Notes: generated from the sequence alone by a model not told the origin. DNA of 41,149 nucleotides from a virus (UHGV-0455966); one strand, 5' to 3'; shown: positions 1,651-39,883, counted from the stretch's first letter. Numbers and translations are program-made.

Positions 1651-1654
1651 AACC

Positions 1655-5451: not shown

Positions 5452-5568
5452 GATTTACCTCTAAGGTAATTAAAAACCACATAAGACACGAAATCAATAG
5501 AGTTTAGAATATTTTGTTACCTGATAGGTAATTATTGAGACGTAAAAAAATGCGCTATCGCGCTGGTA

Positions 5569-6369
5569 TTACTTGATAAATCCTGCCACCTTTCCCCGCC
5601 TGTATTCCTCCATCAGCCACTGCGCCGGTGTTATTCCCCCAAGGGTGGCGGCGTTAGGCATGCACCCGAAACTTCGCCCTGGTGGATGGTAAACGTCTCT
5701 CCCTGTGTCCGGAGGCGTACTCATGGGTTCTGGCTTTGCCTGTATGCTGATCACCGGATCGGGTATCTGCTGTCCGGAAGCCACCTTTTTCGCCCAATCA
5801 TCGAGCAGCCTGCGCGCGTGTTTCTCAACCTCAATCTCGCTAAGCTGGCGCTGATACATTGCACGGCGGGTATCACATACGACCCAGTACATAACCGGAT
5901 GTCGCCACGGGAATCTTTCGGGACCACCAGGATATAAACTTTTTTCCTTGCTGTACCGGTGAAACTCCGCCATCACATCGTCAATGGTGACGCCAAGAAC
6001 CATCTTGCTGTCTTTACACCACTTGATGAATTGCCCTGGCGACGGCCAGAACGGAGACTCACTGGCGCGGGCGTGGCGCATACCAGCAGAAACCTGTTCA
6101 CGGGTTCGGATCCCCCCTTCGGCAAACGCAGCAATCCACTGCTGTTTTGCAGCAACTTCCTGCTCTGGCGTCTTCAGGTTGGTTACCACTGCCGCCGGAA
6201 ACAGTTGTTTCAGCTGTTTAAAAAGGGCATCAACAAGCCTCTCTGCTGACATGTTCACCACATTGTCATTGTTGACGTACTGATGCTCATAACCTGACAT
6301 GCGAGAAAGGGCTTCTCCGTCACGGTTTTGTATCGCAGTAAAAACGTTGTTCACAAGAAATCCTCCCAT
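5569..6369 (-). CDS. replication protein P-like (helicase loader)
   Basis: ...AAFAEGGIRTREQVSAGMRHARASESPFWPSPGQFIKWCKD aligns by eye with lambda P ...NGITTMEQVNAGMRVARRQNRPFLPSPGQFVAWCRE; start may be a later Met since it overlaps the O-like gene end. Confidence 0.7.
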   Translation of the reverse strand: MGGFLVNNVFTAIQNRDGEALSRMSGYEHQYVNNDNVVNMSAERLVDALFKQLKQLFPAAVVTNLKTPEQEVAAKQQWIAAFAEGGIRTREQVSAGMRHARASESPFWPSPGQFIKWCKDSKMVLGVTIDDVMAEFHRYSKEKSLYPGGPERFPWRHPVMYWVVCDTRRAMYQRQLSEIEVEKHARRLLDDWAKKVASGQQIPDPVISIQAKPEPMSTPPDTGRDVYHPPGRSFGCMPNAATLGGITPAQWLMEEYRRGKVAGFIK

Positions 6370-7166
6370 GCTTCAGGGCTGTTCCAGTGCGGAACGTTGT
6401 TATCAGGTAATGTTGATTGCTTCTGTCTGCTAATCTGCAGCCGCCTTGCCAGCTTCTGCTCCCACTGTGCCTGATGGTATGCCTTACCCTCAGCCATCCA
6501 GTAAATTCTGAACTCTGCAAGTTCCTGTGCCGTTGGCAGACTGTCCAGGTAGATCCCCTGCAATGAGCTTTTCCGAAGAAAGTCATCTGATGGCTGCCAT
6601 TGTTCATGCATGACAAATTTGCCTAATTGCCCTGGCCCACCAGGAGGAACAAAGTTATTCATCACGGCGTTGTTTGCGCCGGGGTCATGAGGCACAGAAT
6701 CCCCGCTTTTTGTCCTGCTCTCCCTCTCTTGGTTAAATGACTGGTTATATGACTGGTTCTGGATCCCGTTTTTGGGATCATTCAACATCCCGTTTTTGGG
6801 ATCATTCAACATCCCGTTTTTGGGTATATTCCCGTTTTCGGTAACATTACCGTTTTCGGGTCCATTACCCCCTTCCCGGTTGCCTTTAATGTTCCCGTTT
6901 TTGGTTATATTAAGAGAGAAAACCCGCACTCTTTTCGTCGCTCCCTTTCTCTCTCCGGTATCTGAAATAAGCCCCATTTTCATGAGCGATATAAGCCCGG
7001 CCTGCACGGTTTTTTTATTCAGGCAAGTGTCTTTAACGAGGCGTTCTATGCTGGGGTAGCAGAGGTTATATTCATCGGCTCTGTCAGCCATCGAGAGCAG
7101 TATGAGCTTTAATGACGAGCTACCTGGATCTGTCTCCCAGGCCCAATCTGTTGCATGTCTGCTCAT
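6351..7166 (-). CDS. replication initiator, O-like, with internal origin iterons
   Basis: N-terminal HTH-like region, Asn/Gly-rich repeat KNGMLNDPKNGMLNDPKNG encoded by DNA iterons, directly upstream of P-like gene. Confidence 0.65.
   Translation of the reverse strand: MSRHATDWAWETDPGSSSLKLILLSMADRADEYNLCYPSIERLVKDTCLNKKTVQAGLISLMKMGLISDTGERKGATKRVRVFSLNITKNGNIKGNREGGNGPENGNVTENGNIPKNGMLNDPKNGMLNDPKNGIQNQSYNQSFNQERESRTKSGDSVPHDPGANNAVMNNFVPPGGPGQLGKFVMHEQWQPSDDFLRKSSLQGIYLDSLPTAQELAEFRIYWMAEGKAYHQAQWEQKLARRLQISRQKQSTLPDNNVPHWNSPEAWEDFL
6763..6914. repeat. putative replication origin iterons inside the O-like gene
   Basis: About 6 copies of TCCCGTTTT(T)GG at roughly 20-24 bp spacing (two perfect 24-mers ATCCCGTTTTTGGGATCATTCAAC at 6763 and 6787), followed by AT-rich stretch. 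Confidence 0.65.
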
Positions 7167-7181
7167 GATTAATCTCCGCTA

Positions 7182-7382
7182 TCAGCTTGAATGTTGTGGG
7201 GAGGAATTAATCATGATCTGCTTAATCTCTGCCCTGATACGACGGTTTGATTCCATGGTGCACTCAACACAGTGTCCGTTGTAAACCCAGCGTTCACTGT
7301 CATGTCCGTGCTTACATGGTTTTCCGGTGTAGTAGCGTTTAAGTCCGCGCTTTGCGGCATCAATACGTGTAATGATTTCCAT
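7182..7382 (-). CDS. hypothetical small Cys/His-containing protein (cII-position gene)
   Basis: MEIITRIDAAKRGLKRYYTGKPCKHGHDSERWVYNGHCVEC...; sits between Cro-like gene and O-like gene. Confidence 0.45.
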   Translation of the reverse strand: MEIITRIDAAKRGLKRYYTGKPCKHGHDSERWVYNGHCVECTMESNRRIRAEIKQIMINSSPQHSS

Positions 7383-7483
7383 GGTAAGCCCTGTTATTAG
7401 TATTGGGATTACGGTCATTTTGTGCTGACACAAAAAAAAGATCAACCAGATTTGGTTTTTTATTACCTTTGAGGTACGAATAG

Positions 7484-7511
7484 ATATGAAAAGACCGCCG
7501 GGTGGCGGTCT
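7484..7511 (-). terminator. intrinsic terminator downstream of Cro-like gene (tR1-like position)
   Basis: 8-bp stem AGACCGCC/GGCGGTCT with GGGT loop; minus strand followed by UUUUC. Confidence 0.5.
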
Positions 7512-7532
7512 ACAGAGGGTTGTAGCTGGATA

Positions 7533-7763
7533 TCATGAGTAGAAGAAGTATGCCAGTTCTGCTTTTGAGCGCAGCCATTGTCTTGTTTTACAGGCTTTAA
7601 AAAGCCCATTCATCAATACTTTACCTGGCATTTTGCGCTTACCTGTTAAGTGAGTCTGGATATAGTGACTCGTCGTTCCGGCTTCCTGTGCGAAGGCTTC
7701 ACGCTCATCCGGAGTAAGTGCAAGCCAGTGCTTTTTGAAATCGAAATGTCCGTTATCGCTCAT
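7533..7763 (-). CDS. Cro-like HTH regulator
   Basis: HTH-like DEREAFAQEAGTTSHYIQTHLTGKRK; divergent from repressor; first gene of the operon leading to O/P. Confidence 0.6.
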   Translation of the reverse strand: MSDNGHFDFKKHWLALTPDEREAFAQEAGTTSHYIQTHLTGKRKMPGKVLMNGLFKACKTRQWLRSKAELAYFFYS

Positions 7764-7917
7764 AGCTATTGCCTGATATTTATTTCAGATAATAAATATT
7801 CACCCATAAGGTAACAAAAATCAAGGATAGTTACCTATGAGGTGCATTTACCTGTTGGGTAATATTGCTTTAAATTGAATCATCTACTGATTCATATATG
7901 AGGCGATTTTCCAGAAA
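7764..7917. promoter_or_regulatory. divergent immunity control region with operator-like palindromes
   Basis: TTACC-tgttg-GGTAA at 7848-7862 (perfect), TTACC-tatga-GGTGC at 7831-7845, extra half-sites; AT-rich promoter-like hexamers on both strands. Confidence 0.6.
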
Positions 7918-8502
7918 ATGAAAAGTATCCAGGACGTCCGCAGGCAAAATCTCAACGACTTGATCGACCGTGAATTCAATGGTGTTCAGACGCGGATGGC
8001 AGAAAAACTTGGAACTCAGGCAAATCTGGTAAACCGCTGGGCTCTTGGCAAGAAGGTTATCGGCGACCAGGTTGCACGAAAAATTGAAGCTGCCGCCAAT
8101 AAACCCCGTAACTGGCTTGATATTGATCGCTCGCTTTCTCAGGAGGGTTTTCAGCCTGTCGGCCCGAGTGATATAGGTCAGCTGGCGGCTCACAACCTGG
8201 AACGCTGGATGAGCGAAAGCCGCGACCTTTCAACGCAGGGAAAACTACACCGCGCATCCGGCGTCGCCCAGGTGACAATCAGCCGCCTGTTAAACAATGA
8301 GGTCAGCGTTTCCATTTCCACCCTGGAGAATGTTGCATCCGCATTCGGGCGTCACGGCTATGAATTACTGATTCACCCGCACGACCCTGCGACCATCAAC
8401 TATGATCGCTCGCGCTACGCATTGTTACCCGAAACCGAGAAAGCAAAGATCGAAAGTTACATTGAATTTGTCATCAACCAGAACGAAAAAAACAAACAAT
8501 AA
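7918..8502 (+). CDS. prophage repressor with two HTH domains, no S24 peptidase motif
   Basis: HTH 1 QTRMAEKLGTQANLVNRWALGKK, HTH 2 LHRASGVAQVTISRLLNNEVSVSISTLENVASAFG; no GDSM/Ser-Lys dyad region; divergent from Cro-like gene. Confidence 0.7.
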   Translation: MKSIQDVRRQNLNDLIDREFNGVQTRMAEKLGTQANLVNRWALGKKVIGDQVARKIEAAANKPRNWLDIDRSLSQEGFQPVGPSDIGQLAAHNLERWMSESRDLSTQGKLHRASGVAQVTISRLLNNEVSVSISTLENVASAFGRHGYELLIHPHDPATINYDRSRYALLPETEKAKIESYIEFVINQNEKNKQ

Positions 8503-8522
8503 AATCATATTTTTCAGTAAGT

Positions 8523-8548
8523 AAGCCGCCTTCTGGCGGCTTTTTTAT
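8523..8548 (+). terminator. intrinsic terminator after repressor gene
   Basis: GCCGCC-ttct-GGCGGC followed by TTTTTT. Confidence 0.7.
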
Positions 8549-8559
8549 TGCCTATTCGA

Positions 8560-8636
8560 TTACCTAATGGGTAATTTTTTTAACTCATATCTATTGACAT
8601 CAAACCAGATACGCATAATTATTACCTCAACGGTAA
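8560..8636 (+). promoter_or_regulatory. pL-like early-left promoter flanked by two operator palindromes
   Basis: TTGACA at 8594-8599; palindromes TTACC-taatg-GGTAA (8560-8574) and TTACC-tcaac-GGTAA (8622-8636). Confidence 0.55.
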
Positions 8637-8655
8637 CAGACCGAGGTAACAAGTT

Positions 8656-18596: not shown

Positions 18597-18700
18597 GTTA
18601 AATCTCCAGATAGTCGCAGCACCCGTTGCGCCGCATATCTGGTTATTCTATTACCTGGAAAACCACATATGGATAGAAAGGCTGTAAATACGAATAGATA

Positions 18701-18715
18701 TTACCTTTCAGGTAA
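18701..18715. promoter_or_regulatory. palindrome TTACC-tttca-GGTAA
   Basis: Perfect 15-mer, identical to the site at 39249-39263; AACCACATA box ~32 bp upstream. Confidence 0.6.
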
Positions 18716-18752
18716 TTTGCAAAACGTGCTGGATAGCAAACAAATTATTTGC

Positions 18753-18772
18753 TACTGTATAAATATACAGTT
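18753..18772 (+). promoter_or_regulatory. LexA (SOS) box over the -10 region of the small antirepressor-like gene
   Basis: TACTGTATAAATATACAGTT = CTGT-N8-ACAG, matching the E. coli LexA consensus TACTGTATATATATACAGTA at 18 of 20 positions; 20 bp upstream of ATG 18792. Confidence 0.7.
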
Positions 18773-18791
18773 ATTGCATGGAGAAGATAAG

Positions 18792-19049
18792 ATGCAGCAG
18801 TATCACTATCCACTGGAAGACGGATTTACCGAAAGGATTCACACGCCGGGAGGCGTCAGGTCACTGGTGGAGGGATCGCACTTGATGAAATTACTCCGGG
18901 ATCTCGATAAGGATGGATTTAATGTCGATGGCCCACTTGCCGAACTGACTGCACTGATTAACTACGTCACCAGCTCACAGATGTCTATGCAGGATCTGCA
19001 AACACATCTCGACTATTGTGCCGAACAATTACGAAAACAAACCCGGTAA
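18792..19049 (+). CDS. small antirepressor-like protein (SOS-controlled candidate)
   Basis: GGAGAAG RBS; C-terminal LMKLLRDLDKDGFNVDGPLAELTALINYV...LQTHLDY matches the C-terminus of the BRO-N antirepressor at 20435-21130. Confidence 0.55.
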   Translation: MQQYHYPLEDGFTERIHTPGGVRSLVEGSHLMKLLRDLDKDGFNVDGPLAELTALINYVTSSQMSMQDLQTHLDYCAEQLRKQTR

Positions 19050-19073
19050 ATTTAAAGGCCGCAAGAGCGGCCA

Positions 19074-19989: not shown

Positions 19990-20150
19990 TACTGTAGCTC
20001 TCTTCGTGTTCACGGGCACCCCCAACTACCTCTAGGGTAAACATTCTATCGAAAGTATACGCATACTGGCAAAAAAATAGGCAGGTATTTTCTGAAATGG
20101 GATCAATCAAACCACATAGGGTTGAAATAACGTGAGTTATGCATTTATTA

Positions 20151-20165
20151 TTACCTTTGCGGTAA
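20151..20165. promoter_or_regulatory. palindrome TTACC-tttgc-GGTAA
   Basis: Perfect 15-mer; AACCACATA box at 20110-20118. Confidence 0.6.
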
Positions 20166-20169
20166 ATTT

Positions 20170-20277: not shown

Positions 20278-20434
20278 ATGCGTATAGCACGGCCACATTC
20301 GTATTATGGTGGGCTGTGTGGGGGCACCGAAAGGTGCGCCGGGTCCTTTTAGCCGGTTACGCCAACCCTGCACAGTTCACCACCAACCGATTGGCGTCGG
20401 TAGTGGTGATTAACCAGACTAAAAGGTAACCACT

Positions 20435-21130
20435 ATGACAGCTACAAAAAGCACGTCCATTTTTTCTTTCGAATCCCAAGCCGATATACGGGTAATCGTC
20501 ATTAATGGTGAGCCATGGTTTATCGCTTCAGATGTTTGTCGGGCTATAGGCATAGCAAATCATCGAGATGCTGTTCGAAAACTTGATGATGATGAGAAGG
20601 GCGTCGCTTCAACCGACACCCCTGGCGGTGAGCAAGAATCGATCATCATCTCCGAGTCAGGCCTCTACACACTGATCCTCCGCTGCCGCGACGCAGTGAC
20701 ACCAGGCACTATCCCCTACCGCTTTCGTAAATGGGTTACAGGTGAGGTTCTTCCTCAGATCCGCCGCACCGGAAGTTACATTAAAAACTCGCTCCCGCAG
20801 GAAGAACGCATAAAGATGGTTGCCGACCAGGTAGCCAACGCCACAGCATCAGCAGTGATGCAGGCAATGAAGATAGAGAACAAAACCTACAGTGCCCCAC
20901 TGAAGCCCGGCTACCGCAGCCTGATTCATTCGCCGTCTGGTGTTCTCGGCCTGACGGAGAACTCACTGCTGATGAATCTGCTGAACCAGTTACAGGAAGA
21001 CGGGCACGACGTATCGGGCGCGGCGGCGGAGCTGACCACCATGTTCTGCTACATCGTCGGTGTGAGCAAATGCCTGCGTGATATCCAGACCCACGCGGAG
21101 TACATCAACGACAAGGCAGGGTTCTTCTGA
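20435..21130 (+). CDS. BRO-N-domain antirepressor
   Basis: N-terminal FESQADIRVIVINGEPWFIASDVCRAIGIANHRDAVRKL typical of Bro-N/Ant proteins; C-terminal domain shared with 18792-19049. Confidence 0.7.
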   Translation: MTATKSTSIFSFESQADIRVIVINGEPWFIASDVCRAIGIANHRDAVRKLDDDEKGVASTDTPGGEQESIIISESGLYTLILRCRDAVTPGTIPYRFRKWVTGEVLPQIRRTGSYIKNSLPQEERIKMVADQVANATASAVMQAMKIENKTYSAPLKPGYRSLIHSPSGVLGLTENSLLMNLLNQLQEDGHDVSGAAAELTTMFCYIVGVSKCLRDIQTHAEYINDKAGFF

Positions 21131-21201: not shown

Positions 21202-21216
21202 TTACCTTAAAGGTAA
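21202..21216. promoter_or_regulatory. palindrome TTACC-ttaaa-GGTAA
   Basis: Perfect 15-mer about 27 bp upstream of ATG 21243. Confidence 0.6.
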
Positions 21217-21242
21217 ACCATGTGTTTACATGAGGAGGAGAT

Positions 21243-21452
21243 ATGGGATTTTGGTTCGCTCGTACAAAAACGAGGGATAATGCACCCAGCCCTCAGGCAA
21301 AAAATGCAGAAGTTCCGGCGTCAGCGCAGGTTAACAAGCGTGGTGGTGTGTATATCTCATCACAGCAAATTTCTGAGCTTCCTGAGGTTAAGGAGATGCG
21401 TCGTCTCGCTGCTGCAATCGTTAAACAGGATCTTGCCACTGTAAGGAAATAG
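21243..21452 (+). CDS. hypothetical small protein, first gene of accessory operon
   Basis: GAGGAGGAG RBS; normal GC; TAG stop overlaps GTG start of next gene. Confidence 0.5.
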   Translation: MGFWFARTKTRDNAPSPQAKNAEVPASAQVNKRGGVYISSQQISELPEVKEMRRLAAAIVKQDLATVRK

Positions 21453-22315
21453 TGTTGTTAGCTCTTCTAATTATCCCCATTCTGGTTAGTGGTTATATTA
21501 TGATAACCGCTAACCAGTATCATTATTTCCGTTTATACCGACATGAAGGCCAGCTTCTTTATATGAAAGTTGCTGCATTAGGTACATATTGCCTTGTTGC
21601 TTCGGTAATAATTGCCGCATTTATAAAATATAAATATCCTGATTTTCACCTAGTTCACGATATGGTGGAAACTTTTAATGTAACGTCAAAACCAGAAACA
21701 GATAGAATTTACATGTGGCTACTTCTTCTGTCAGTCACATCAATTTGCTTCTCTTTGTGTTATGTATCTTTTGTTTGGCTAAAAGATCTTCTTTTAGGTT
21801 GTTTTTATAAACGTGATATTTATGACAAAATATCAGAGGCAATGAAAGCTAGGGTATTGCGAAAAACGTACTCCCAGGGTTCTTTAGATTTGCTATTGCT
21901 TGATGCAATCGAATCAGATCCTAAGAAACCAATGTTAATTACTTTATCATCAAATAAAGTATACGTTGGAATAATAAATGGTTCTGGTGAGCCAACGGAA
22001 AATCAAGGGCCACACCAACACATATCTTTTGTTCCTTTAATGTCAGGGTACAGAAACAAAGAAAATTTATCTGTTACATTTACAAACGCTTACCCAGGTG
22101 AAATCCAAATTAAGCGCAGTGCTGCGATAAAAGGGATAAGCAAAAAGAAAGTTCAAGGTCTAGAAATTATGGTATCTATAGACGAAATAAGTCATATATC
22201 ATGGTTTGACTTTGAAGTATATAAGGCAACAAATAACAAAGTAGAAACAAAGGGTCATGTTGTTAATGTGACCAAAAATGGTCGCAACATATACTACAGA
22301 AGTGGCAGAAAATAA
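21452..22315 (+). CDS. AT-rich membrane protein (3 N-terminal TM helices + soluble C-domain), unknown function
   Basis: GTG start with AAGGA RBS; hydrophobic segments LLALLIIPILVSGYIMI, VAALGTYCLVASVIIAAFI, MWLLLLSVTSICFSLCYVSFVWL; sharp drop in GC at gene start. Confidence 0.6.
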   Translation: MLLALLIIPILVSGYIMITANQYHYFRLYRHEGQLLYMKVAALGTYCLVASVIIAAFIKYKYPDFHLVHDMVETFNVTSKPETDRIYMWLLLLSVTSICFSLCYVSFVWLKDLLLGCFYKRDIYDKISEAMKARVLRKTYSQGSLDLLLLDAIESDPKKPMLITLSSNKVYVGIINGSGEPTENQGPHQHISFVPLMSGYRNKENLSVTFTNAYPGEIQIKRSAAIKGISKKKVQGLEIMVSIDEISHISWFDFEVYKATNNKVETKGHVVNVTKNGRNIYYRSGRK

Positions 22316-22331
22316 ATTTTACGCAGTTTAG

Positions 22332-22844
22332 GTGGCTTATATGGATAATACTATCTTAGGCGCATTGATAGGTGCAGTTATTGCTATAGTTTCCACTTAT
22401 ATAAATGCAGGACAAGGATACAAAAACAGCATAAGATTAGAGCGACAAAAAATATTAAGGGATAAACGCGAGCAATTATTTATAAATTGTATACTTACTA
22501 AAAAAGTCATAGATTCAAGCACAATTACCATTCTCAATTTCGTAAAAAATGCCAGATACCACTCTGATAGTAAATTTGACGTATCAAGAGCGAATCCGTT
22601 GCAAACGATGGAAATGCTAATAAACATATACCTTCCTGAGTATAAAAAAGACTTACAAGAACTCAATAATGCGTATCAAGAATTTCACAAATACTACTCT
22701 CAATATACATGTGCACATACCTTCAAAAATATGCCTGATAATGAGAAGTCGAGGTTTATTGAGGAGGCTGATTTTTATGCAAAAAAGATATATGGCAAAC
22801 TTAATGATATTAAGGACAAGATATCATTAAACTCAATAGTATAA
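22332..22844 (+). CDS. AT-rich single-pass membrane protein, unknown function
   Basis: N-terminal TM ILGALIGAVIAIVSTYI then helical soluble domain; 16 bp after upstream gene. Confidence 0.6.
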   Translation: MAYMDNTILGALIGAVIAIVSTYINAGQGYKNSIRLERQKILRDKREQLFINCILTKKVIDSSTITILNFVKNARYHSDSKFDVSRANPLQTMEMLINIYLPEYKKDLQELNNAYQEFHKYYSQYTCAHTFKNMPDNEKSRFIEEADFYAKKIYGKLNDIKDKISLNSIV

Positions 22845-23804: not shown

Positions 23805-23805
23805 C

Positions 23806-34060: not shown

Positions 34061-34386
34061 TCACCTCCGTTACCGTACAGAGTTTCAGCCGCTGATTTTT
34101 CTACATCCCTGGAAACAGGAGCGATCGCCATATCAGTGATCTGCAGATCGGCGCTGCGATTAACACCATCGTCAGTTTCTCTGGCAGACAGGCCTCGAAT
34201 AACAGCCTTTGCAGTTATCATCACTTCTGTTCCGACGCCCTGAGGTTGCGCCTTCAGCTTATTCAATGTGTCGTTATTAAGAGTGATGCACAGCCCCCAC
34301 GGGTATTCATCGCGAGTTCTGGTTTCTCCGCTCTCATCCTGGTAGCTGTCAGTGCCGGTTTTGAGGTTTACGAGTTCCATATACAC
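34057..34386 (-). CDS. hypothetical virion-module protein
   Basis: 109-aa ORF between capsid and tubular A genes. Confidence 0.45.
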   Translation of the reverse strand: MYMELVNLKTGTDSYQDESGETRTRDEYPWGLCITLNNDTLNKLKAQPQGVGTEVMITAKAVIRGLSARETDDGVNRSADLQITDMAIAPVSRDVEKSAAETLYGNGGE

Positions 34387-34430
34387 TCCTGCAATAAAGG
34401 GGCCGAAGCCCCTTGTCGGATTCGCGAGGC

Positions 34431-34775
34431 TTACACGCCCAGTTCTTTACGCTTATCTGCGATCTTCTCGCGGAGCGTTTCGGCTTTAGCGTTATGGTGT
34501 GGCTTCTCGTTAAAGAGCAATTCGTACTCTTCACGGAGCTTATCCAGTTCACCATCATCTGACACATCGTTGATGATTTTGGTGCTGGTTGCTGCCATAG
34601 ACACCTTTCCTGCTACCTTTGCTTTTGCCTGTCTGGCTGCATCGTTAACAGGTTCCAGTGCGCTACCAGGCTCACCTTCGTATTCGATTTCTGCCCCCTC
34701 CGGCCACAGTGTGTTATGGATATGAGAGAGGCGCAGAACGCGGTATCTTGGTTTCTCACCTGACATCGATATCAC
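34431..34775 (-). CDS. hypothetical virion-module protein
   Basis: 114-aa ORF, charged/helical. Confidence 0.45.
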   Translation of the reverse strand: MISMSGEKPRYRVLRLSHIHNTLWPEGAEIEYEGEPGSALEPVNDAARQAKAKVAGKVSMAATSTKIINDVSDDGELDKLREEYELLFNEKPHHNAKAETLREKIADKRKELGV

Positions 34776-34776
34776 C

Positions 34777-35214
34777 TTAACCAGTTACTTTTGAGCGGAT
34801 CGGGTACGGCGTATTGGCATCAACATCCAGACTGATACCCGCAGTGAATTTGCCGGCCGTTAGTGGGCCAGTTGCGACGGAGTAGTTAACACGCAGATAT
34901 CGCTGAACACCGGCTGGCACCTTTGCAGAAACAACTCGCTTACCTGCTGTCAGGGTGGCCTTTGCCAACGCACCACTATCATAAATAGTGGTCCAAGAGC
35001 TGTTATTCTCACTCGTCTGCAACTGGATGTTTACAGTTGCCTCACCACTTGCCGTGGCGGCTTCGTTAACCAGCCCCCAAAACTCAAGCGGGTAACCCAC
35101 ACCGATATCGCGACGGTTTCCATCAATTGGACCGAGATCGATTACGTCAGTAGAAGCCGCGGTATCAGTTACCGCCTGTGCTTCGGAGAACATCAACAGT
35201 TTGTCGGTGATCAT
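34777..35214 (-). CDS. hypothetical virion protein (decoration or adaptor candidate)
   Basis: 145-aa ORF immediately after capsid gene. Confidence 0.45.
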   Translation of the reverse strand: MITDKLLMFSEAQAVTDTAASTDVIDLGPIDGNRRDIGVGYPLEFWGLVNEAATASGEATVNIQLQTSENNSSWTTIYDSGALAKATLTAGKRVVSAKVPAGVQRYLRVNYSVATGPLTAGKFTAGISLDVDANTPYPIRSKVTG

Positions 35215-35265
35215 CTTCTTTCTCCATTAGTGGGTCTGTTACGACCCACAGGTTAATAACAGGCG

Positions 35266-36258
35266 TTACACCACGCGGGCTTCTGTTTCCAGAAGCGCAT
35301 CAGTTTCACGGATTGGTACACCACGGAATGACGTCCACCACTCGCCTTCAGTCTCTTTTACGCTAATCGCCAGAGATGTTTTCTCCAGAGACTGCAGATC
35401 AAGAGCCTGGCCTACAGTGCGGTTCATGTAGAACACCGGGCGACCCATGCCACGGTTTGGAATGCGATGCAGTGCTTTAACCATCAACTTCGCAATATTT
35501 GCGGCAGAGGAAGGTTCTGAAAGATTGCTGACATCGATGTTTGCAATGCGAACAACATAACGCCAGTCACGCAGAGCAAGTCCGTTATCCCATTTGTAAT
35601 GGGTGCGATAGCCTTCGTACTTGCCGCCATTAGCATCTTCCAGTGTCACCTGGCCTTTATCTTCCATCTGGATGCCAGCCTTCTGCCCTTTCGGGAAGAT
35701 GCCATGCACGGTGTTTTCGCCCCACACTACTAACCAGATTGAGGTGTTATCTGTACCCGTGCCACCAGCATCAATGATGTTCTGAGCATTACCCGCAGAC
35801 AGGCTGGAATAGCGGGAGGACAGTCCCATAAACTGCTGAGGGTTAACGCTGGAATCACCATAAAACAGTGTCTGCGCCATCTGCTGATTCATCGCTTCAA
35901 TAAATGCGCGGTCTTCAGACAGGCGGAATTCGGCGGTATTACCGTTCAGATCAGCCAGTGACTTATCGACTTCAGCATAGGTTTCCAGCATTCCAACGGA
36001 ATCGGTGACCTGCACTGTGGTTGATTTGCTTGGCTGTACGCCATAGTTCAGCAAACGCCAGGTGGCTGAAGGTAAACCAGAACGAATGGTGGTTCGGTGT
36101 CCGGTAGGAAGGTTCCCTTCGACAAAAGGCATATCCTGAAGGATCGGGTTAGTTTGACCGAGAAGCTCGATAATCTTATCGACTTTCCCGTTTGGATCGA
36201 CGCGCTTACCCCAGTCAGCCAGCGTTAGCGCAGTTAAGCCTTTAACAGCCATTGTCAT
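35266..36258 (-). CDS. major capsid protein
   Basis: 330 aa, follows scaffold gene, strong codon bias; T7 gp10-like size and position. Confidence 0.7.
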   Translation of the reverse strand: MTMAVKGLTALTLADWGKRVDPNGKVDKIIELLGQTNPILQDMPFVEGNLPTGHRTTIRSGLPSATWRLLNYGVQPSKSTTVQVTDSVGMLETYAEVDKSLADLNGNTAEFRLSEDRAFIEAMNQQMAQTLFYGDSSVNPQQFMGLSSRYSSLSAGNAQNIIDAGGTGTDNTSIWLVVWGENTVHGIFPKGQKAGIQMEDKGQVTLEDANGGKYEGYRTHYKWDNGLALRDWRYVVRIANIDVSNLSEPSSAANIAKLMVKALHRIPNRGMGRPVFYMNRTVGQALDLQSLEKTSLAISVKETEGEWWTSFRGVPIRETDALLETEARVV

Positions 36259-36266
36259 TTCCTCTC

Positions 36267-36968
36267 TTATTTGCCATAGAGCACTTCGGCCGCACTACGC
36301 TGGCCTTCATTACCACCGGTGACCATGCCATCTTCAGACATCGCCTTTCCGATTTTCACGAACGTTTTGACCAGATCAGGGTGATTACCCAGTCCGGTGG
36401 TGTTCAGATATTCTTTGAGTTCAGGTGTCCCGAACTGGTCAAGCGCACGCTGTGCGGCGCTAAGGTTAGAAATCAACTTGTCGCCACCGATTTCTTTGTC
36501 AGCTTTTACATCAGCAGCCCACTGCTCGGTTGTTTTCTGCCAGGCTTCTGCCTGGCGCTGCTGCACACCTGCCAGAATCTTCGGATAAGCATCAACCAGC
36601 TTTTGCGCTTGCTCGTTGGTCAGGTTAAGTTCTCGCGCCACCGGCTCGAACTCCTTCAACGCTTCTGTATCCAGCTCTACGCCTTCGGCAGCCTGAAACT
36701 CGTACTTCTCAGGCGCACCCTCTGGTTTATCGCCGTCCTTTTTTTCATCCTGCTTATCGTTTTCAGGCTTTTTGTCATCAGCAGGTTTATCGCCATCAGC
36801 AACAGGTTGTGGCTTATCACCTTCCTGTTGTGATGGATCACCAACTGGAGCAGGGTTATCACCTGCAGGCGCTAACGGTTCTGACGCAGCCGGAGCTGCT
36901 CCACCATCGACTGGTTGCTCATTGCAAAGACGGCGATACAGCAAACGCTCAAATAAATTCATGATCAC
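36267..36968 (-). CDS. capsid scaffolding protein
   Basis: Highly acidic, Pro/Asp/Lys-rich, helical protein between portal and capsid genes. Confidence 0.6.
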   Translation of the reverse strand: MIMNLFERLLYRRLCNEQPVDGGAAPAASEPLAPAGDNPAPVGDPSQQEGDKPQPVADGDKPADDKKPENDKQDEKKDGDKPEGAPEKYEFQAAEGVELDTEALKEFEPVARELNLTNEQAQKLVDAYPKILAGVQQRQAEAWQKTTEQWAADVKADKEIGGDKLISNLSAAQRALDQFGTPELKEYLNTTGLGNHPDLVKTFVKIGKAMSEDGMVTGGNEGQRSAAEVLYGK

Positions 36969-37261
36969 TCCTGTTCACTGGCCTCTTTGGCCATCTTCAA
37001 ATACTGTTCAGGGCAATGCGCCATAACGCGCTGAAACAGTTCCAGCGCCAGATTGCGTTGCCCCTCATTAAATGCCATTGCCATAGCGTCCATCGGTGAG
37101 ATAGCGGAAAACACCCGGCCTTTCTCCAGCACAGACCAGACAACGCGACGCCCCTGTTCACTGCTCATGACAAAGCGAATGTCATCAATTTCACGCTGTG
37201 CCATGTCACGTTGCTTACTGGCGTTTTCTTCTTTCAGTTGATCATCTTCGTAATCTGTCAT
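36965..37261 (-). CDS. hypothetical small protein
   Basis: 98-aa ORF coupled between portal and scaffold genes. Confidence 0.4.
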   Translation of the reverse strand: MTDYEDDQLKEENASKQRDMAQREIDDIRFVMSSEQGRRVVWSVLEKGRVFSAISPMDAMAMAFNEGQRNLALELFQRVMAHCPEQYLKMAKEASEQE

Positions 37262-38937
37262 TGTGATTGCCCACCCTGACCACTAACTGCATTCGCCATA
37301 GCTGACAAAACACTCGGATCCGAAGTTTTAGCTTCGCTTAGCGTCTTGGCACCCTGTGCCGCCGCCATCCCCATCGCCATCATTTGTTGCTGCTGTTGTT
37401 GCTGTGCCCGTTGCTGGCGAGCCTGCTCAACCTGTTCCTGCGGAACAATGACGGTTGGAGACACTCCGGACATATCAGCGAATGCATCGATCGCCTGATC
37501 AACGTTGAGTTTGTCGAGAGCTTCTGGTTTCGCTTGCGCAAGTTGACCAATGAAGTTAACCGTGGACGCCAGACTGGACAGGCCGATAGACTTCTGCGCC
37601 TGAGCCATGACAGAAATGTATTCGACCTTCAGGGGCATACCTTCCATCGCGTCAGGCGGTGGCGGCAGCATGTTTTTACGCACCATCATCGAGAAAGCGC
37701 GGTCAATGAGAGGATTAAGACATTCGTCGTTCAGACGCTCCAGAACCGGCCCCAACATCAGAAGTTTTTCTTCTTTCATTTCGATCACCGCTTCAACAGG
37801 CATCGAGCGGGTATTGATGTTCTGCAACATCATGAACAGATCGACAAAGTAGGCGCTGTTAATGATTTGGCGGGTGTCCTGAATGTCTGCTACCAGATCT
37901 GCTGTACTGGGGTTAACCAGATAAGCAGGCCTGAAACCATCCTGACCAGTAATCTGATCGATATACGTGATGTCGCCAGGAAGAAGGGAGGCGCGCTGAT
38001 TCTTGAGGGAAGTCGGAGCAACCATCGGCGGATTGGTGGCTTTATCAATCAACTGCGACTTGCGCTTCTGGAGAAGCTGCAATGCCTTAACAGGTCCAAG
38101 CGCCAGCATACCCGGGCATGATGATCCATAAACATCTTCGCCGTTAACTTCCCAGCGCGGAGCCATAATTGGAAACTCATCGAATCCGGACTCACGCAAC
38201 AACTTGTCGTTATCGCCACCAACCTCGTAATAAACCGATTTGAATGGCTTGTTCTTGCTATCCAGCTTCGATGTATCGCGGTCAATGTTCGGGTAAACCG
38301 AATGCATCACTTCAATCCACTTCTCGTAGGTGCCGCTTTCCCACATGCTTTTTACGGATTCGCTGACGTTATTTAGCCCGAACTCCCGAACAAGCTGACG
38401 AACAGTCATAGAGAACTTGCGAAAACAGGTGTCCACACTGCCACGAGGTGAGTTAGCCAGGTAGTAACTGCCTATCGGGAATGGCATTGTGCGAATGATG
38501 TCCTCGTCATCCTCCAGCACCGCCATTGCACCAGTGCTGTATGTGCCGAGGCTTCCGTATAACTGCGGAAGAGACTGGTAGAGATTCGACTTATTGAACA
38601 TATCGTTCATGCGGTTCTGCACCGCCTCAAGCCACAACTTAACAGGGCCATAATCCATCATTTCAGGATCTGGCGTAGCCAGGCGAAACCACGGACGCGC
38701 GGGGCTTGTGATGCCTGACATCATGCCGCTGGCGAGAGTGCGCGCCGCCATAGTCCCGGTCGAATCAATAATGCGTGTATTGCGTCGATCGTTACGGTTG
38801 ACCTCAGAAGTAAGAAAGCGGGAACCACGCGGGTTGATGTAATCACTCAACTCGCGCCAGTGCGGCTCGAACGACTGACGCTCGCTTTCAAGTTGTGCGA
38901 ACTGTTTGTTCAATCGCTCTTTAGTTGTTTCCGCCAT
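37258..38937 (-). CDS. portal protein (T7 gp8-like head-tail connector)
   Basis: 559 aa; Gln/Ala/Met-rich C-terminal tail QQRAQQQQQQQMMAMGMAAAQGAK like T7 gp8 C-terminus; first large gene after terL. Confidence 0.7.
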   Translation of the reverse strand: MAETTKERLNKQFAQLESERQSFEPHWRELSDYINPRGSRFLTSEVNRNDRRNTRIIDSTGTMAARTLASGMMSGITSPARPWFRLATPDPEMMDYGPVKLWLEAVQNRMNDMFNKSNLYQSLPQLYGSLGTYSTGAMAVLEDDEDIIRTMPFPIGSYYLANSPRGSVDTCFRKFSMTVRQLVREFGLNNVSESVKSMWESGTYEKWIEVMHSVYPNIDRDTSKLDSKNKPFKSVYYEVGGDNDKLLRESGFDEFPIMAPRWEVNGEDVYGSSCPGMLALGPVKALQLLQKRKSQLIDKATNPPMVAPTSLKNQRASLLPGDITYIDQITGQDGFRPAYLVNPSTADLVADIQDTRQIINSAYFVDLFMMLQNINTRSMPVEAVIEMKEEKLLMLGPVLERLNDECLNPLIDRAFSMMVRKNMLPPPPDAMEGMPLKVEYISVMAQAQKSIGLSSLASTVNFIGQLAQAKPEALDKLNVDQAIDAFADMSGVSPTVIVPQEQVEQARQQRAQQQQQQQMMAMGMAAAQGAKTLSEAKTSDPSVLSAMANAVSGQGGQSQ

Positions 38938-38951
38938 TTCAATGACTCCGG

Positions 38952-39158
38952 TTACTGACCAAGCAGCGTTTTACCGCTGGTCTTAGCGGTTGATGTGTCG
39001 CCCTGAGAACCGGTAAGCAGCGTAGAACTACGACCAGCAGCAGCGCGACGGCGACGAGTTTCTTCGTCGCGGGCATCAACAACGGCGGCATCCTGCTCCT
39101 GTGGTGCTGCCTGAACTTCTGGTGTTGCAGGCACTGATGGTGAGCTACCCATGCACAT
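38952..39158 (-). CDS. hypothetical small protein upstream of portal
   Basis: GGAG RBS; Ala/Arg-rich 68 aa; overlapping ORF 38939-39178 in another frame judged less likely. Confidence 0.4.
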   Translation of the reverse strand: MCMGSSPSVPATPEVQAAPQEQDAAVVDARDEETRRRRAAAGRSSTLLTGSQGDTSTAKTSGKTLLGQ

Positions 39159-39197
39159 ATCAATGACTCCGTACGCAATTAAATTATTACCAATTTA

Positions 39198-39263
39198 ACC
39201 ACATATGATTTATTTATCGTAGATAGTTGACATTTAACGCACAAATTATTACCTTTCAGGTAA
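39198..39263 (+). promoter_or_regulatory. promoter-like module: AACCACATA box, TTGACA, palindrome TTACC-tttca-GGTAA
   Basis: AACCACATA 39198-39206, TTGACA 39227-39232, palindrome 39249-39263; upstream of structured region and tRNA. Confidence 0.5.
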
Positions 39264-39585
39264 CCAAAGAGTTCATTCCGGTTACTAACCTGACTGGCTT
39301 GTCGTTAAATTGAACAGGTGGAGTGAGCTTTTATTTTGAGCAGTACGGCGTATGGCACATGCGCCGATAGCGGTCTGGATACGTTTAAGGGGCACCCTCC
39401 CTTGCTCGGGCAAACGAACCAGGTAGCCGGAATGTGCAAGTCGAGCGGTTTTATTCCGCGCACGGGGATTCACCATCCCGGCGATTCGGTGTGACGCCTC
39501 GGAAGAGACGAGGGTACAACGATGAGAGCATTTATGGAGCCGCGACAAAGTGTGGTGCCTTAACAGGCTAAGTGCTCTCAGCGTT

Positions 39586-39662
39586 GTGGCATTAGCTCAG
39601 TTGGACAGAGCAACCGCCTTCTAAGCGGTTGGTCGCAGGTTCGAATCCTGCATGCCGCGCCA
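39586..39662 (+). tRNA. tRNA-Arg (anticodon UCU)
   Basis: Hand-folded cloverleaf: acceptor GTGGCAT/ATGCCGC, D-stem GCTC/GAGC, anticodon stem ACCGC/GCGGT with loop CUUCUAA, T-arm GCAGG-TTCGAAT-CCTGC, discriminator G, encoded CCA. Confidence 0.85.
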
Positions 39663-39705
39663 GAATCACGCCTAAGGACCGTGATGCCAGAAGTTCCAGG
39701 GGCTT

Positions 39706-39748
39706 GGCGGTGATGGTTTCCCTTGAAGGACTATCACCGCCCTTTTTA
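39706..39748 (+). terminator. hairpin plus T-run downstream of tRNA
   Basis: GGCGGTGAT ... ATCACCGCC then CTTTTT. Confidence 0.5.
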
Positions 39749-39825
39749 CAGCAGGACGCCATTGCGATGACTTCATGCTGTAAACCCGTACAGCCACGGA
39801 AGGCATAACTCATTGCTTCCAGTTC

Positions 39826-39849
39826 GCCCGGTTCGCCGGGCATTTTTTT
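39826..39849 (+). terminator. strong intrinsic terminator (UUCG tetraloop)
   Basis: GCCCGG-ttcg-CCGGGC followed by ATTTTTTT. Confidence 0.7.
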
Positions 39850-39865
39850 GCCTGATGACCACAAA

Positions 39866-39883
39866 TTACCTTAAAGGTATAAT
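39866..39883 (+). promoter_or_regulatory. imperfect palindrome TTACC-ttaaa-GGTAT overlapping a perfect TATAAT
   Basis: TATAAT at 39878-39883 ends 1 nt before ATG 39885. Confidence 0.45.

What the first reader, a model, noticed from the sequence alone, without database searches (positions are those of the whole stretch)
5455..39880. Dispersed 15-bp palindrome TTACC-N5-GGTAA at intergenic sites across the genome
Nine perfect copies (5455, 5517, 7848, 8560, 8622, 18701, 20151, 21202, 39249) and four one-mismatch copies (7463, 7831, 13847, 39866) were found by eye. All are intergenic: the repressor/cro region, the early-left promoter, upstream of int, upstream of both antirepressor-like genes, upstream of the accessory membrane operon, upstream of the tRNA and the AT-rich gene, and between the P-like and DUF1064 genes. 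A 10-nt-specified palindrome should occur about 0.04 times by chance in 41 kb. Several copies are preceded by an AACCACATA box (5475, 18661, 20110, 39198). This looks like one regulator, possibly the dual-HTH repressor, controlling core immunity promoters and accessory genes together.
Basis: seen in the sequence. Interest (0 to 1): 0.6.

Follow-up and report, generated by a model that had tools for sequence, protein, structure and literature searches.

The report
Repressor operators of an epsilon15-like phage
The repeated TTACC-N5-GGTAA palindrome is real and far beyond chance, but it is the binding site already predicted for the lysogeny repressor of epsilon15/phiV10-type phages, placed at nearly every promoter of the genome, so it rediscovers an annotated feature.

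Summary
The window has 10 perfect TTACC-N5-GGTAA copies against 0.02 expected, and 16 at one mismatch or fewer against 0.6. A weight-matrix scan gives 15 strong and 3 weak sites. All but one weak site lie in the 6.8% of the genome that is non-coding.

The window is a complete, circularly permuted Uetakevirus genome of the epsilon15/phiV10 type. Its repressor is 100% identical to that of phiV10. The epsilon15 GenBank record already annotates ATTACC-N5-GGTAAT as "repressor / lysogeny" binding sites scattered over its genome. The motif is the top 5+5 palindrome in four genomes given an unbiased census. It occurs 8-11 times at matching positions in six relatives and not at all in lambda.

The palindrome arms and the promoter hexamers are invariant across the genus, while site centres and flanks drift. 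An independent test links the site to the repressor's N-terminal domain. Pseudomonas phages that share only that domain carry TTACC-N4-GGTAA on both sides of their cI gene: 57 sites in 20 loci against 0.1 expected.

The most likely mechanism is that the repressor, a tetramer in the solved homologue, occludes about 11 promoters, including those of accessory cassettes. Operator pairs 62 bp apart bracket two of these promoters. Relief would come from LexA-controlled antirepressors.

Novelty: already known. Interest: low. A conserved co-oriented TATGTGGTT box remains unexplained.

The parts
1650..1664 (.). Weak operator-like site (TAACCACCGTGGTAA), 18 bp from the 1668 site. Read on the minus strand it ends 2 nt before the probable TerS start codon (ATG at 1647).
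   Evidence: One mismatch. Weight-matrix score 9.8 bits. Conserved as TTACCACGGTGGTTA in TL-2011b and as the related TTACCCTGGTGGTTA in Tyrion.
1668..1682 (.). Operator upstream of terS, at the start of the packaging and late genes.
   Evidence: Perfect copy. Matching sites occur in phiV10 (87), epsilon15 (12, annotated as repressor-binding), SPC32H (12) and Tyrion (67).
5455..5469 (.). Promoter-proximal operator of the promoter between the P-like and DUF1064 genes. On the minus strand the -10 hexamer TTTAAT ends on its first T. Its right arm supplies the GAGGT ribosome-binding sequence 3 nt before the ATG.
   Evidence: TTGATT-17-TTTAAT.
5517..5531 (.). Upstream operator of the same promoter, exactly 62 bp from the 5455 site.
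   Evidence: The 62-bp pair is conserved in all six genomes compared.
7463..7477 (.). Imperfect operator after the cro-like terminator and upstream of the p42 and replication genes.
   Evidence: One mismatch, 19.1 bits. Imperfect counterparts in Tyrion (35365) and BUCT711 (6032).
7800..7814 (.). Operator in the region between the cro-like and rep genes. It lies in the spacer of the predicted leftward promoter TTGTTA-17-TATTAT.
7831..7845 (.). Degenerate middle operator of the same region (two mismatches), 17 bp from the 7848 site. Its counterpart is a perfect copy in BUCT711, epsilon15 and SPC32H.
   Evidence: (13.3 bits).
7848..7862 (.). Operator nearest the rep gene. The sequence GGTAATAT is invariant across the six genomes.
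8560..8574 (.). Upstream operator of the early-left promoter, centred about -62.
8622..8636 (.). Promoter-proximal operator of the early-left promoter. The promoter TTGACA-17-AATTAT ends on its first T, so the site covers the transcription start.
13847..13861 (.). Conserved imperfect operator about 50 nt upstream of int, between int and the attP core (13995-14011).
   Evidence: Counterparts in Tyrion (28568), BUCT711 (12620) and TL-2011b (135).
18701..18715 (.). Single operator in the divergent region between the tailspike gene (minus strand) and the small antirepressor gene (plus strand).
   Evidence: The matching site in epsilon15 (19895) is annotated as repressor-binding.
20026..20040 (.). 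Operator 2 nt downstream of the predicted leftward promoter TTGCCA-18-TAGAAT, which drives the accessory genes phrog_9503 and phrog_1651.
20151..20165 (.). Operator abutting the promoter TTGAAA-18-TATTAT of the Bro-N/Ant-fusion antirepressor gene. It is 125 bp from the 20026 site.
   Evidence: Same site in phiV10 (20497).
21202..21216 (.). Operator 3 nt before the ATG of the first gene of a three-gene accessory cassette (21220-22844). It is preceded by TACTAT.
   Evidence: TL-2011b carries different cargo at this slot and also has an operator there (33333).
39249..39263 (.). Shared operator in the divergent region between the head operon (p06, minus strand) and the tRNA-Arg/accessory unit (plus strand). 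It lies 16 nt downstream of an invariant TTGACA.
   Evidence: The matching site in epsilon15 (2931) is annotated as repressor-binding.
39866..39880 (.). Imperfect operator 4 nt before the ATG of the AT-rich accessory gene (39885-40733). It overlaps the predicted promoter ATGACC-17-TATAAT.
39889..39903 (.). Weak site with a good right half only, 23 bp from the 39866 site and inside the first codons of the accessory gene.
   Evidence: 11.6 bits.
7918..8502 (+). Repressor gene (Rep, 194 aa). The N-terminal HTH domain carries the invariant recognition helix NLVNRW. The C-terminal domain is HTH_3-like and, in the SPC32H homologue, forms the tetramer and binds the antirepressor.
   Evidence: Literature: PMC9782041, PMC9638917.
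7533..7763 (-). Cro-like gene (76 aa), divergent from rep. It is a candidate second user of the same operators.
   Evidence: The stretch AGTTSHYIQ is invariant; no Pfam family was found.
18792..19049 (+). Small antirepressor gene, homologous to the gene annotated ant in SPC32H (phiV10 p24, epsilon15 gp19).
18755..18770 (.). LexA box (CTGTATAAATATACAG) 22 nt upstream of the small antirepressor's start codon.
20435..21130 (+). Bro-N protein with a C-terminal Ant-like domain; a second antirepressor candidate.
   Evidence: the p24 query also matches 20888-21103 at 44% identity; phrog_450 at residues 148-229.
5475..5483 (-). TATGTGGTT box (read on the minus strand), lying between the two DUF1064-promoter operators.
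18661..18669 (-). TATGTGGTT box 31 nt downstream of operator 18701, in the orientation of the tailspike gene.
   Evidence: Same box in phiV10 (20923).
20110..20118 (-). TATGTGGTT box 32 nt downstream of operator 20151, in the orientation of the leftward accessory genes.
39197..39205 (-). TATGTGGTT box upstream of the head operon. It sits inside a 28-bp block (ATATGTGGTTAAATTGGTAATAATTTAA) that is invariant in six genomes.

Best explanation
The palindromes are the operators of the phage's lysogeny repressor Rep (7918-8499). The extended consensus is ATTACCT-N3-AGGTAAT.

Each TTACC half-site is most likely read by one N-terminal HTH domain of Rep, whose recognition helix is NLVNRW. In the solved homologue Rep is a tetramer, so it offers two DNA-binding pairs. 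These could occupy two operators at once. The two operators may be adjacent, 17-18 bp apart as in the cro/rep region and at terS. Or they may be 62 bp apart, about six helical turns, as at the early-left and DUF1064 promoters, where they bracket the -35 and -10 hexamers.

The promoter-proximal operator starts on the last base of the -10 hexamer and covers the transcription start. Bound Rep would therefore block RNA polymerase. Operators sit at about 11 transcription units: the cro/rep region, early-left, p42/replication, DUF1064, terS, the head operon with the tRNA unit, tailspike with ant, Bro-N-ant, int, and three accessory cassettes. Rep would thus silence essentially the whole genome directly, rather than only the top of a cascade.

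Induction is inferred to run from DNA damage to LexA release, then expression of the small antirepressor, then disassembly of Rep. Both antirepressor genes also carry an operator, which would make the switch self-reinforcing.

Shown here by computation: the enrichment, the restriction to non-coding DNA, the conservation of position and of the arms, the overlap with promoter hexamers, and the co-occurrence of the half-site with the Rep N-terminal domain. Taken from papers: repressor function, the tetramer, and antirepression. Inferred: which protein contacts which site, DNA looping, and the direction of regulation at each promoter.
For: Enrichment: 10 perfect copies against 0.02 expected, and 16 against 0.6 at one mismatch or fewer.

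Specificity: this is the top 5+5 palindrome in an unbiased census of the window, phiV10, epsilon15 and SPC32H. Relatives carry 8-11 perfect copies, mostly at matching positions. Lambda has none.

Location: 17 of 18 sites are in the 6.8% non-coding DNA.

Conservation: the arms and the -35/-10 hexamers are invariant while centres and flanks diverge.

Prior annotation: the epsilon15 GenBank record labels seven of these sites 'protein_bind, repressor, lysogeny'.

The protein: Rep is 100% identical to the phiV10 and ZX5 repressors and homologous to SPC32H Rep (5D50, E = 4e-42). Overexpressed ZX5 repressor abolishes lytic transcripts. SPC32H Rep binds palindromic sites as a tetramer, as summarised in PMC9638917.

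Recognition helix: NLVNRW is invariant although the repressors are only 43-78% identical overall.

Cross-family test: Pseudomonas-type CI proteins share only the N-terminal domain and have an S24 peptidase C-terminal domain. Their loci lack a Cro-like homologue. They have TTACC-N4-GGTAA on both sides of cI: 57 sites in 20 loci against 0.1 expected, with no N5 copies.

Promoter overlap: TTGACA-17-AATTAT, TTGATT-17-TTTAAT and TTGAAA-18-TATTAT each end on the operator's first T.

Induction: a LexA box lies upstream of ant.
Against: No binding experiment could be run, and the primary papers were not held, so operator biochemistry rests on secondary descriptions. The missing papers are Kropinski 2007, Kim & Ryu 2013 and Kim et al. 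2016.

The Cro-like protein is equally conserved across the genus. Within Uetakevirus, co-conservation therefore cannot separate Rep from Cro.

Several single sites lack a convincing sigma-70 promoter next to them, namely 13847, 7463 and 18701. Repression by occlusion is not evident there.

A 62-bp loop is very tight and is only inferred from helical phasing.

No relative with an altered recognition helix and an altered half-site was found, so a true covariation test of specificity is missing.
Confidence: 0.85

Rival explanations
1. The sites are used mainly or also by the Cro-like protein (7533-7763) as the lytic-phase repressor, as lambda Cro shares the operators of CI.
For: The gene is divergent from rep across three operators. 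Its HTH-like stretch AGTTSHYIQ is invariant across the genus, in step with the invariant half-site.
Against: The Pseudomonas-type loci carry the same half-site flanking cI but have no Cro-like homologue. The motif therefore tracks the Rep N-terminal domain. Shared use by both proteins is not excluded and is compatible with the main explanation.
Confidence: 0.35
2. A host transcription factor binds the sites. One candidate is the antitoxin MqsA, whose palindrome is AACCT-N3-AGGTT.
For: Eight sites contain ACCT-N3-AGGT (sequences). The MqsA motif is quoted in the abstract of PMC4894380. The phage motif is conserved in phages of E. coli, Salmonella, Klebsiella and Enterobacter.
Against: The conserved outer bases are TTACC, not AACC. 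About half the strong sites lack the T/A at positions 6 and 10. The half-site follows the repressor's N-terminal domain into Pseudomonas phages. Rep's N-terminal domain and MqsA's HTH domain show no detectable sequence similarity.
Confidence: 0.04
3. The palindrome acts in RNA, as a small hairpin that hides the ribosome-binding site or marks a processing or termination point.
For: At least four sites end 2-4 nt before a start codon, and their right arm (AGGT or GAGGT) can serve as the ribosome-binding sequence. All copies can fold into a hairpin.
Against: The hairpins are weak, at -3.5 to -5.8 kcal/mol. The arm sequence itself is conserved, and every deviation is one-sided with none compensated. 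That is the signature of protein-DNA recognition. Upstream partners at about -62 and sites in divergent regions would not be transcribed in a useful sense. With the -10 hexamer ending on the first T, the left arm is not in the local transcript.
Confidence: 0.03
4. The repeats reflect chance or base composition.
For: None.
Against: 0 of 100 shuffles reach the observed counts. Lambda has none. The sites are conserved at matching positions in diverged genomes.
Confidence: 0

Closest known systems
   Same: Same genus, same core ATTACC-N5-GGTAAT, and the same dispersed positions: upstream of terS, gp3, the tailspike, the early-left region and the gene after the replication genes. Epsilon15 also has the same 62-bp and 17-bp spacings.
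   Different: The window's repressor is only 42-43% identical to that of epsilon15. The window favours T at position 6. It has extra operators at accessory cassettes that epsilon15 lacks. The phiV10 reference record, the closest annotated relative, carries no operator annotation.
SPC32H Rep-Ant-LexA switch (PDB 5D50/5D4Z; Kim & Ryu 2013; Kim et al. 2016)
   Same: Homologous Rep along its full length (E = 4e-42). Homologous small Ant. A LexA box precedes ant. SPC32H carries 10 perfect copies of the same palindrome.
   Different: The window has a second antirepressor in which Bro-N is fused to an Ant-like domain, with its own operator-controlled promoter. The operator sequences used in the SPC32H biochemistry could not be checked, because the papers are not held.
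Dispersed operators of the phage P1 C1 repressor
   Same: One immunity repressor with many operators spread over the genome, controlling many operons directly. P1 has 22 dispersed sites (PMC8546580). In both systems the repressor is inactivated by protein antirepressors rather than by cleavage.
   Different: P1 operators are asymmetric 17-mers (ATTGCTCTAATAAATTT). Whether the P1 and Rep proteins are related was not tested here.
Stoperators of cluster A mycobacteriophages (L5 gp71 type)
   Same: Numerous repressor sites distributed across the genome in short non-coding gaps (abstract of PMC9283540).
   Different: Stoperators are asymmetric, are bound by a monomer, and stop elongating polymerase. 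The sites here are palindromic and sit mostly at promoters.
Lambda-type OL/OR operators
   Same: Clusters of palindromic sites on both sides of the repressor gene that overlap divergent promoters.
   Different: Lambda operators are confined to the immunity region. Here about two thirds of the sites lie elsewhere. No S24 peptidase domain was found in Rep, and in the SPC32H homologue the repressor is inactivated by an antirepressor.

Membership tests
Uetakevirus (epsilon15-type) Rep operators | Sequence ATTACC-N5-GGTAAT as annotated in epsilon15 | tested here: met
   The seven annotated epsilon15 sites all read (A)TTACC-N5-GGTAAT. The window has 10 perfect copies and 5 strong imperfect ones.
Uetakevirus (epsilon15-type) Rep operators | Matching positions at terS, head operon, tailspike/ant, early-left, cro/rep, post-replication promoter and int | tested here: met
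Uetakevirus (epsilon15-type) Rep operators | A cognate Rep homologue encoded next to the central operator cluster | tested here: met
Uetakevirus (epsilon15-type) Rep operators | Physical binding by Rep and repression of the adjacent promoter | not testable with these tools
   Only indirect support: overexpression of the ZX5 repressor and a secondary description of SPC32H Rep binding palindromes.
Lambda-type immunity operators | Multiple palindromic sites flanking the repressor gene and overlapping divergent early promoters | tested here: met
   Sites 7800, 7831 and 7848 on one side and 8560 and 8622 on the other.
Lambda-type immunity operators | Operators restricted to the immunity region | tested here: not met
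   13 of 18 sites lie outside 7400-8700.
Dispersed-operator regulons (P1 C1; L5 stoperators) | Many repressor sites spread genome-wide | tested here: met
   About 11 clusters over 41 kb.
Dispersed-operator regulons (P1 C1; L5 stoperators) | Asymmetric site with orientation-dependent action | tested here: not met
   The site is a palindrome.
MqsA-type palindrome | AACCT-N3-AGGTT bound by an MqsA-like HTH | tested here: not met
   The core ACCT-N3-AGGT occurs in 8 sites, but the flank is TACC rather than AACC. Rep's N-terminal domain shows no similarity to the MqsA HTH.
RNA hairpin element | A stable stem maintained by compensatory changes | tested here: not met
   Stability of -3.5 to -5.8 kcal/mol. 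All arm deviations are one-sided.

The most novel reading that the evidence does not exclude
The operator may be one half of a genus-wide two-part promoter module: operator, then 31-43 nt, then a co-oriented TATGTGGTT box. The module marks the post-replication, head, tailspike, lysis (in epsilon15) and some accessory transcription units. The box would be the site of an unidentified phage or host factor. On this reading the lytic programme is wired by two cis-codes, with Rep as a direct genome-wide silencer and the box factor as a positive signal. This would replace a lambda-style cascade. Accessory cassettes would be plugged into that wiring as lytic-phase genes rather than lysogenic-conversion genes.
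Probability: 0.3. Interest if true: 0.45.

Novelty: already known. Interest (0 to 1): 0.2.

Why it matters
The finding matters mainly for annotation. phiV10-type records, including the reference NC_007804.2, carry no operator features, and the operators also help to fix gene starts and spurious ORFs.

The biology has some interest beyond that.

- **Direct control of every operon.** One repressor appears to control nearly every operon directly, including variable accessory cassettes. Those cassettes would then be silent in the lysogen and active in lytic growth, which is the opposite of classical morons.
- **A frozen recognition code.** The half-site and the recognition helix are unchanged across repressors that are only 42-43% identical and across four host genera. 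This suggests that DNA specificity is locked by the many operators. Divergence would then be pushed into the C-terminal domain that binds the antirepressor. Cross-immunity between these phages is a testable prediction.
- **A parts list.** The compact unit of promoter, operator and ribosome-binding site, together with the 62-bp phasing, gives a defined set of parts for testing the unusual tetramer model proposed for SPC32H Rep.

Tried and rejected
1. **Primary papers.** I tried to read Kropinski 2007 (PMC2698709), Kim & Ryu 2013 (PMC3807360) and Kim et al. 2016 (PMC4983836). None is held. Prior knowledge therefore rests on the GenBank feature table and on secondary descriptions.

2. **MqsA lead.** I recalled that MqsA binds ACCT-N3-AGGT and that its recognition helix has an N-x3-R pattern like Rep's NLVNR. 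The recalled MqsA sequence was checked against PDB entries 2KZ8 and 3GN5. BLASTP of Rep's N-terminal domain against the MqsA HTH found nothing, and a PDB sequence search with the N-terminal domain found only 5D50. The idea is kept only as a low-probability cross-talk.

3. **First scan for related loci.** The first scan with the N-terminal-domain alignment returned only copies 100% identical to the query. Putting the Pseudomonas sequence first gave the informative set.

4. **Covariation test.** No relative with a changed recognition helix was recovered, partly because one scan pattern was the helix itself. This test is still missing.

5. **The TATGTGGTT box.** I compared it by eye with the -10 and extended -10 consensus, a T4 MotA-type -30 box, sigma-54, the DnaA box (8 of 9 at one copy but 6 of 9 at another) and CRP. 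Spacing to candidate -10 hexamers is inconsistent (0, 7 and 10 nt), so none fits. NCBIfam and Pfam give no family for the candidate regulator p55.

6. **Defence annotation.** A PADLOC scan of the accessory proteins gave only weak matches for one protein and nothing for the other six.

7. **Literature search.** One search using 'Uetakevirus' returned nothing relevant.

Full report
**1. The observation**

An exact scan finds 10 copies of TTACC-N5-GGTAA where 0.02 are expected. At one mismatch or fewer there are 16 where 0.60 are expected, and none of 100 dinucleotide-preserving shuffles reaches that number.

One-mismatch copies at 1650, 7800 and 20026 were missed.

A symmetrised 19-bp weight matrix gives the consensus (A/T)ATTACCT-N3-AGGTAAT(T/A). 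It separates 15 sites at 16.4-25.4 bits from a background of 9 bits or less. Three weaker sites fall in between: 7831, 39889 and 1650.

In an unbiased census of every 5+5 palindrome with 0-12 nt spacers, this one ranks first in the window.

**2. What the window is**

The window is a circularly permuted, complete genome of an epsilon15/phiV10-type podovirus (genus Uetakevirus).

- A 7-kb stretch (5000-12000) is 98% identical to phiv142-3 and PAS61 and 97% identical to phiV10.
- TerL is split across the two ends of the window.
- The attP core is intact at 13995-14011.

With the phiV10 gene map transferred by tblastn, 6.8% of the genome is non-coding. That fraction holds 17 of the 18 sites. The TerS sites count as non-coding only with the shorter TerS start, which epsilon15, SPC32H and Tyrion annotate.

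**3. It is already annotated in the type phage**

The epsilon15 GenBank record AY150271.2 carries seven features labelled "protein_bind / repressor / lysogeny". They lie upstream of terS, gp3 and the tailspike, three in the early-left region, and one upstream of gene 43. Read out, all seven are (A)TTACC-N5-GGTAAT.

Perfect copies in relatives:

| Genome | Perfect copies |
|---|---|
| epsilon15 | 11 |
| SPC32H | 10 |
| Tyrion | 9 |
| BUCT711 | 9 |
| TL-2011b | 9 |
| phiV10 | 8 |
| lambda (control) | 0 (one single-mismatch copy, as expected by chance) |

The phiV10 reference record has no such features.

**4. Footprinting across genomes**

I aligned four regulatory regions from six genomes whose repressors are 43-78% identical to the window's (phiV10's is identical). 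The regions are the early-left region, the cro/rep region, the post-replication promoter and the head-operon promoter.

The invariant columns are the TTACC and GGTAA arms and the promoter hexamers, for example TTGACA and ATTAT. The five central bases and the flanks vary.

Spacing is also conserved. The operator pairs at the early-left and post-replication promoters are 62 bp apart in every genome (63 bp at one pair in BUCT711). Adjacent pairs sit 17-18 bp apart in the cro/rep region (in BUCT711, epsilon15 and SPC32H as two perfect copies) and at terS.

**5. Which protein binds**

The ORF at 7918-8499 is 100% identical to the repressors of phiV10 and of vB_EcoP_ZX5. Overexpressing the ZX5 protein eliminated free phage and cut holin and endolysin transcripts by 99.97-99.99% (PMC9782041).

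The protein matches SPC32H Rep (PDB 5D50) along its whole length, with E = 4e-42. According to PMC9638917, that repressor binds palindromic sites as a tetramer. Its DNA-binding pairs come from different dimers, and a tetrameric antirepressor takes it apart. PMC9986798 describes its tetramerisation domain.

Across the genus the recognition-helix stretch NLVNRW is invariant while the rest of the protein diverges. The Cro-like protein is conserved too, so conservation within the genus cannot separate the two.

A comparison outside the genus can. Pseudomonas phage PseuP_224 and 20 IMG/VR loci encode a CI whose N-terminal domain is homologous to Rep's (helix SANYISRC). Its C-terminal domain is an S24 peptidase, shown for PseuP_224. 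These loci have no Cro-like homologue.

They carry TTACC-N4-GGTAA on both sides of cI. In nearly all the loci the upstream copies lie at fixed distances of 34 and 73 bp from the start codon. In all there are 57 copies against 0.1 expected, and no N5 copy. The Uetakevirus genomes have only N5 copies.

The half-site therefore travels with the Rep N-terminal domain, and only the spacing changes between lineages. This is the strongest computational evidence here that Rep reads the site. It also argues against a host factor.

**6. How it most likely works**

Three operators start exactly on the last T of a good -10 hexamer:

| Promoter | Hexamers | Operator |
|---|---|---|
| Early-left | TTGACA-17-AATTAT | 8622 |
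| DUF1064 | TTGATT-17-TTTAAT | 5455 |
| Bro-N antirepressor | TTGAAA-18-TATTAT | 20151 |

Sources.

- The terS and orf74 operators follow TACTAT.
- The 20026 operator follows TAGAAT by 2 nt.
- The 39249 operator lies 16 nt after an invariant TTGACA, so it overlaps that promoter's -10 position.

A bound repressor would thus cover the transcription start or the -10 hexamer.

At 5455, 21202, 39866 and 1650 the site ends 2-4 nt before the start codon. The right arm (AGGT or GAGGT) then doubles as the ribosome-binding sequence. Promoter, operator and ribosome-binding site are packed into about 40 bp.

The partner operator 62 bp upstream is centred near -62, on the same face of the helix. It would fit the second DNA-binding pair of a tetramer. 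This looping is inferred, not shown.

A LexA box (18755-18770) precedes the small antirepressor gene, which is homologous to the gene annotated ant in SPC32H. My recollection of the Kim & Ryu 2013 abstract is that LexA controls ant in SPC32H; only the paper's title could be confirmed here.

A second antirepressor candidate is a Bro-N protein with an Ant-like C-terminal domain. It has its own operator-controlled promoter.

**7. Accessory genes**

Operators precede three accessory units:

- the leftward pair phrog_9503 and phrog_1651;
- the three-gene cassette at 21220-22844;
- the tRNA-Arg unit together with the AT-rich gene at 39885-40733.

The accessory region is highly mosaic among relatives. 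TL-2011b nevertheless has an operator in front of different cargo, a YafO-type module, at the same slot. If Rep represses here, these cassettes are lytic-phase genes rather than lysogen-expressed ones. This is an inference.

**8. Rivals**

- **RNA hairpin.** The stems are weak, at -3.5 to -5.8 kcal/mol. Every deviation in an arm is one-sided, and none is compensated.
- **MqsA.** Its palindrome AACCT-N3-AGGTT shares the ACCT-N3-AGGT core with 8 sites. The conserved outer bases differ, and Rep's N-terminal domain shows no similarity to MqsA.
- **Chance.** Excluded.

**9. Comparison and verdict**

In function the system resembles the dispersed operators of P1 C1, which has 22 sites but asymmetric ones (PMC8546580). 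It also resembles mycobacteriophage stoperators, which are asymmetric, monomer-bound and block elongation (PMC9283540). As a family member, it is simply the epsilon15-type Rep operator set.

The finding is real, its interpretation is supported, and it is already known as a prediction. What this analysis adds:

- the full site list for a phiV10-type genome;
- the strict 62-bp phasing;
- the overlap of the -10 hexamer, the operator and the ribosome-binding site;
- the link between the N-terminal domain and the half-site across phage families;
- the unexplained TATGTGGTT box.

Noticed in passing
window 5475-5483, 18661-18669, 20110-20118, 39197-39205 (minus strand); L001 3310, 20923, 35118; L002 2990, 24753; L004 4027, 21440; L005 34518: There are four perfect copies of a TATGTGGTT box, all oriented with early-right and late transcription. 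Each lies 31-43 nt downstream of an operator. Upstream of the head operon the box sits in a 28-bp block (ATATGTGGTTAAATTGGTAATAATTTAA) that is invariant in six genomes. Its spacing to candidate -10 hexamers is inconsistent, and no known consensus fits.
   Followed up: partly
window 5455/5517 and 8560/8622; matching pairs in L001-L005 and L167: The operator pairs that bracket two promoters are exactly 62 bp apart centre to centre in every genome examined (63 bp once in BUCT711). This suggests cooperative binding on one face of the helix by the tetrameric repressor.
   Followed up: partly
window 7918-8499; L002-L005: The operator half-site and the recognition helix NLVNRW are identical across repressors that are only 43-78% identical and across phages of four host genera. 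Most of the divergence is in the C-terminal domain that binds the antirepressor. Cross-immunity across the genus would be worth testing.
   Followed up: partly
L006 10906, 10932, 11768, 11807; L087-L106 about 2428, 2467 and 3330: Pseudomonas siphovirus CI repressors combine the same N-terminal domain with an S24 peptidase domain (shown for PseuP_224). They use TTACC-N4-GGTAA (spacer 4, not 5) on both sides of cI.
   Followed up: yes
window 18755-18770: A consensus LexA box (CTGTATAAATATACAG) lies 22 nt upstream of the small antirepressor gene at 18792-19049.
   Followed up: partly
window 20435-21130: The Bro-N protein carries a C-terminal domain of the same PHROG family (phrog_450) as the small antirepressor. 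The genome therefore encodes two Ant-type proteins. Only the small one has a LexA box.
   Followed up: partly
window 39586-39662 (plus strand) against 39595-39843 (minus strand): tRNA-Arg(TCT) lies on the strand opposite the ORF that phiV10 annotates as p04 and overlaps it. That ORF is probably spurious. The tRNA appears to be driven by the operator-controlled TTGACA promoter near 39227.
   Followed up: partly
window 1647-1728: phiV10's TerS start (the TTG at 1728 in window coordinates) would put two operators inside the gene. The ATG at 1647, 2 nt after the second operator, matches the TerS starts annotated in epsilon15, SPC32H and Tyrion.
   Followed up: partly
window 6730-6869: Three adjoining tandem arrays lie inside the replication-initiator gene: 12 bp x 2.4, a perfect 24 bp x 2.6, and 18 bp x 3.1. 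They look like origin iterons, as in lambda's O gene.
   Followed up: no
window sites 5455, 5517, 7463, 13847, 18701, 21202, 39249, 39866: Eight operators contain ACCT-N3-AGGT, the core of the palindrome bound by the E. coli antitoxin MqsA (AACCT-N3-AGGTT; PMC4894380). No protein similarity was found between Rep's N-terminal domain and MqsA.
   Followed up: partly
window 39885-40733: An AT-rich accessory gene (about 38% GC over 40001-41000) behind its own operator encodes a 282-aa protein of phrog_4780. It has only weak matches to LmuB, DruC and PD-Lambda-1 defence models, with E of 1e-4 to 3e-4.
   Followed up: no
window 1-1057 and 40737-41149; 13995-14011: The window is a circular permutation of a whole phage genome. 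TerL is split across the ends, and the C-terminal part of phiV10 TerL matches the window's far end at only 93% identity. The attP core ATTGAGTGGGAATGATT is intact.
   Followed up: no
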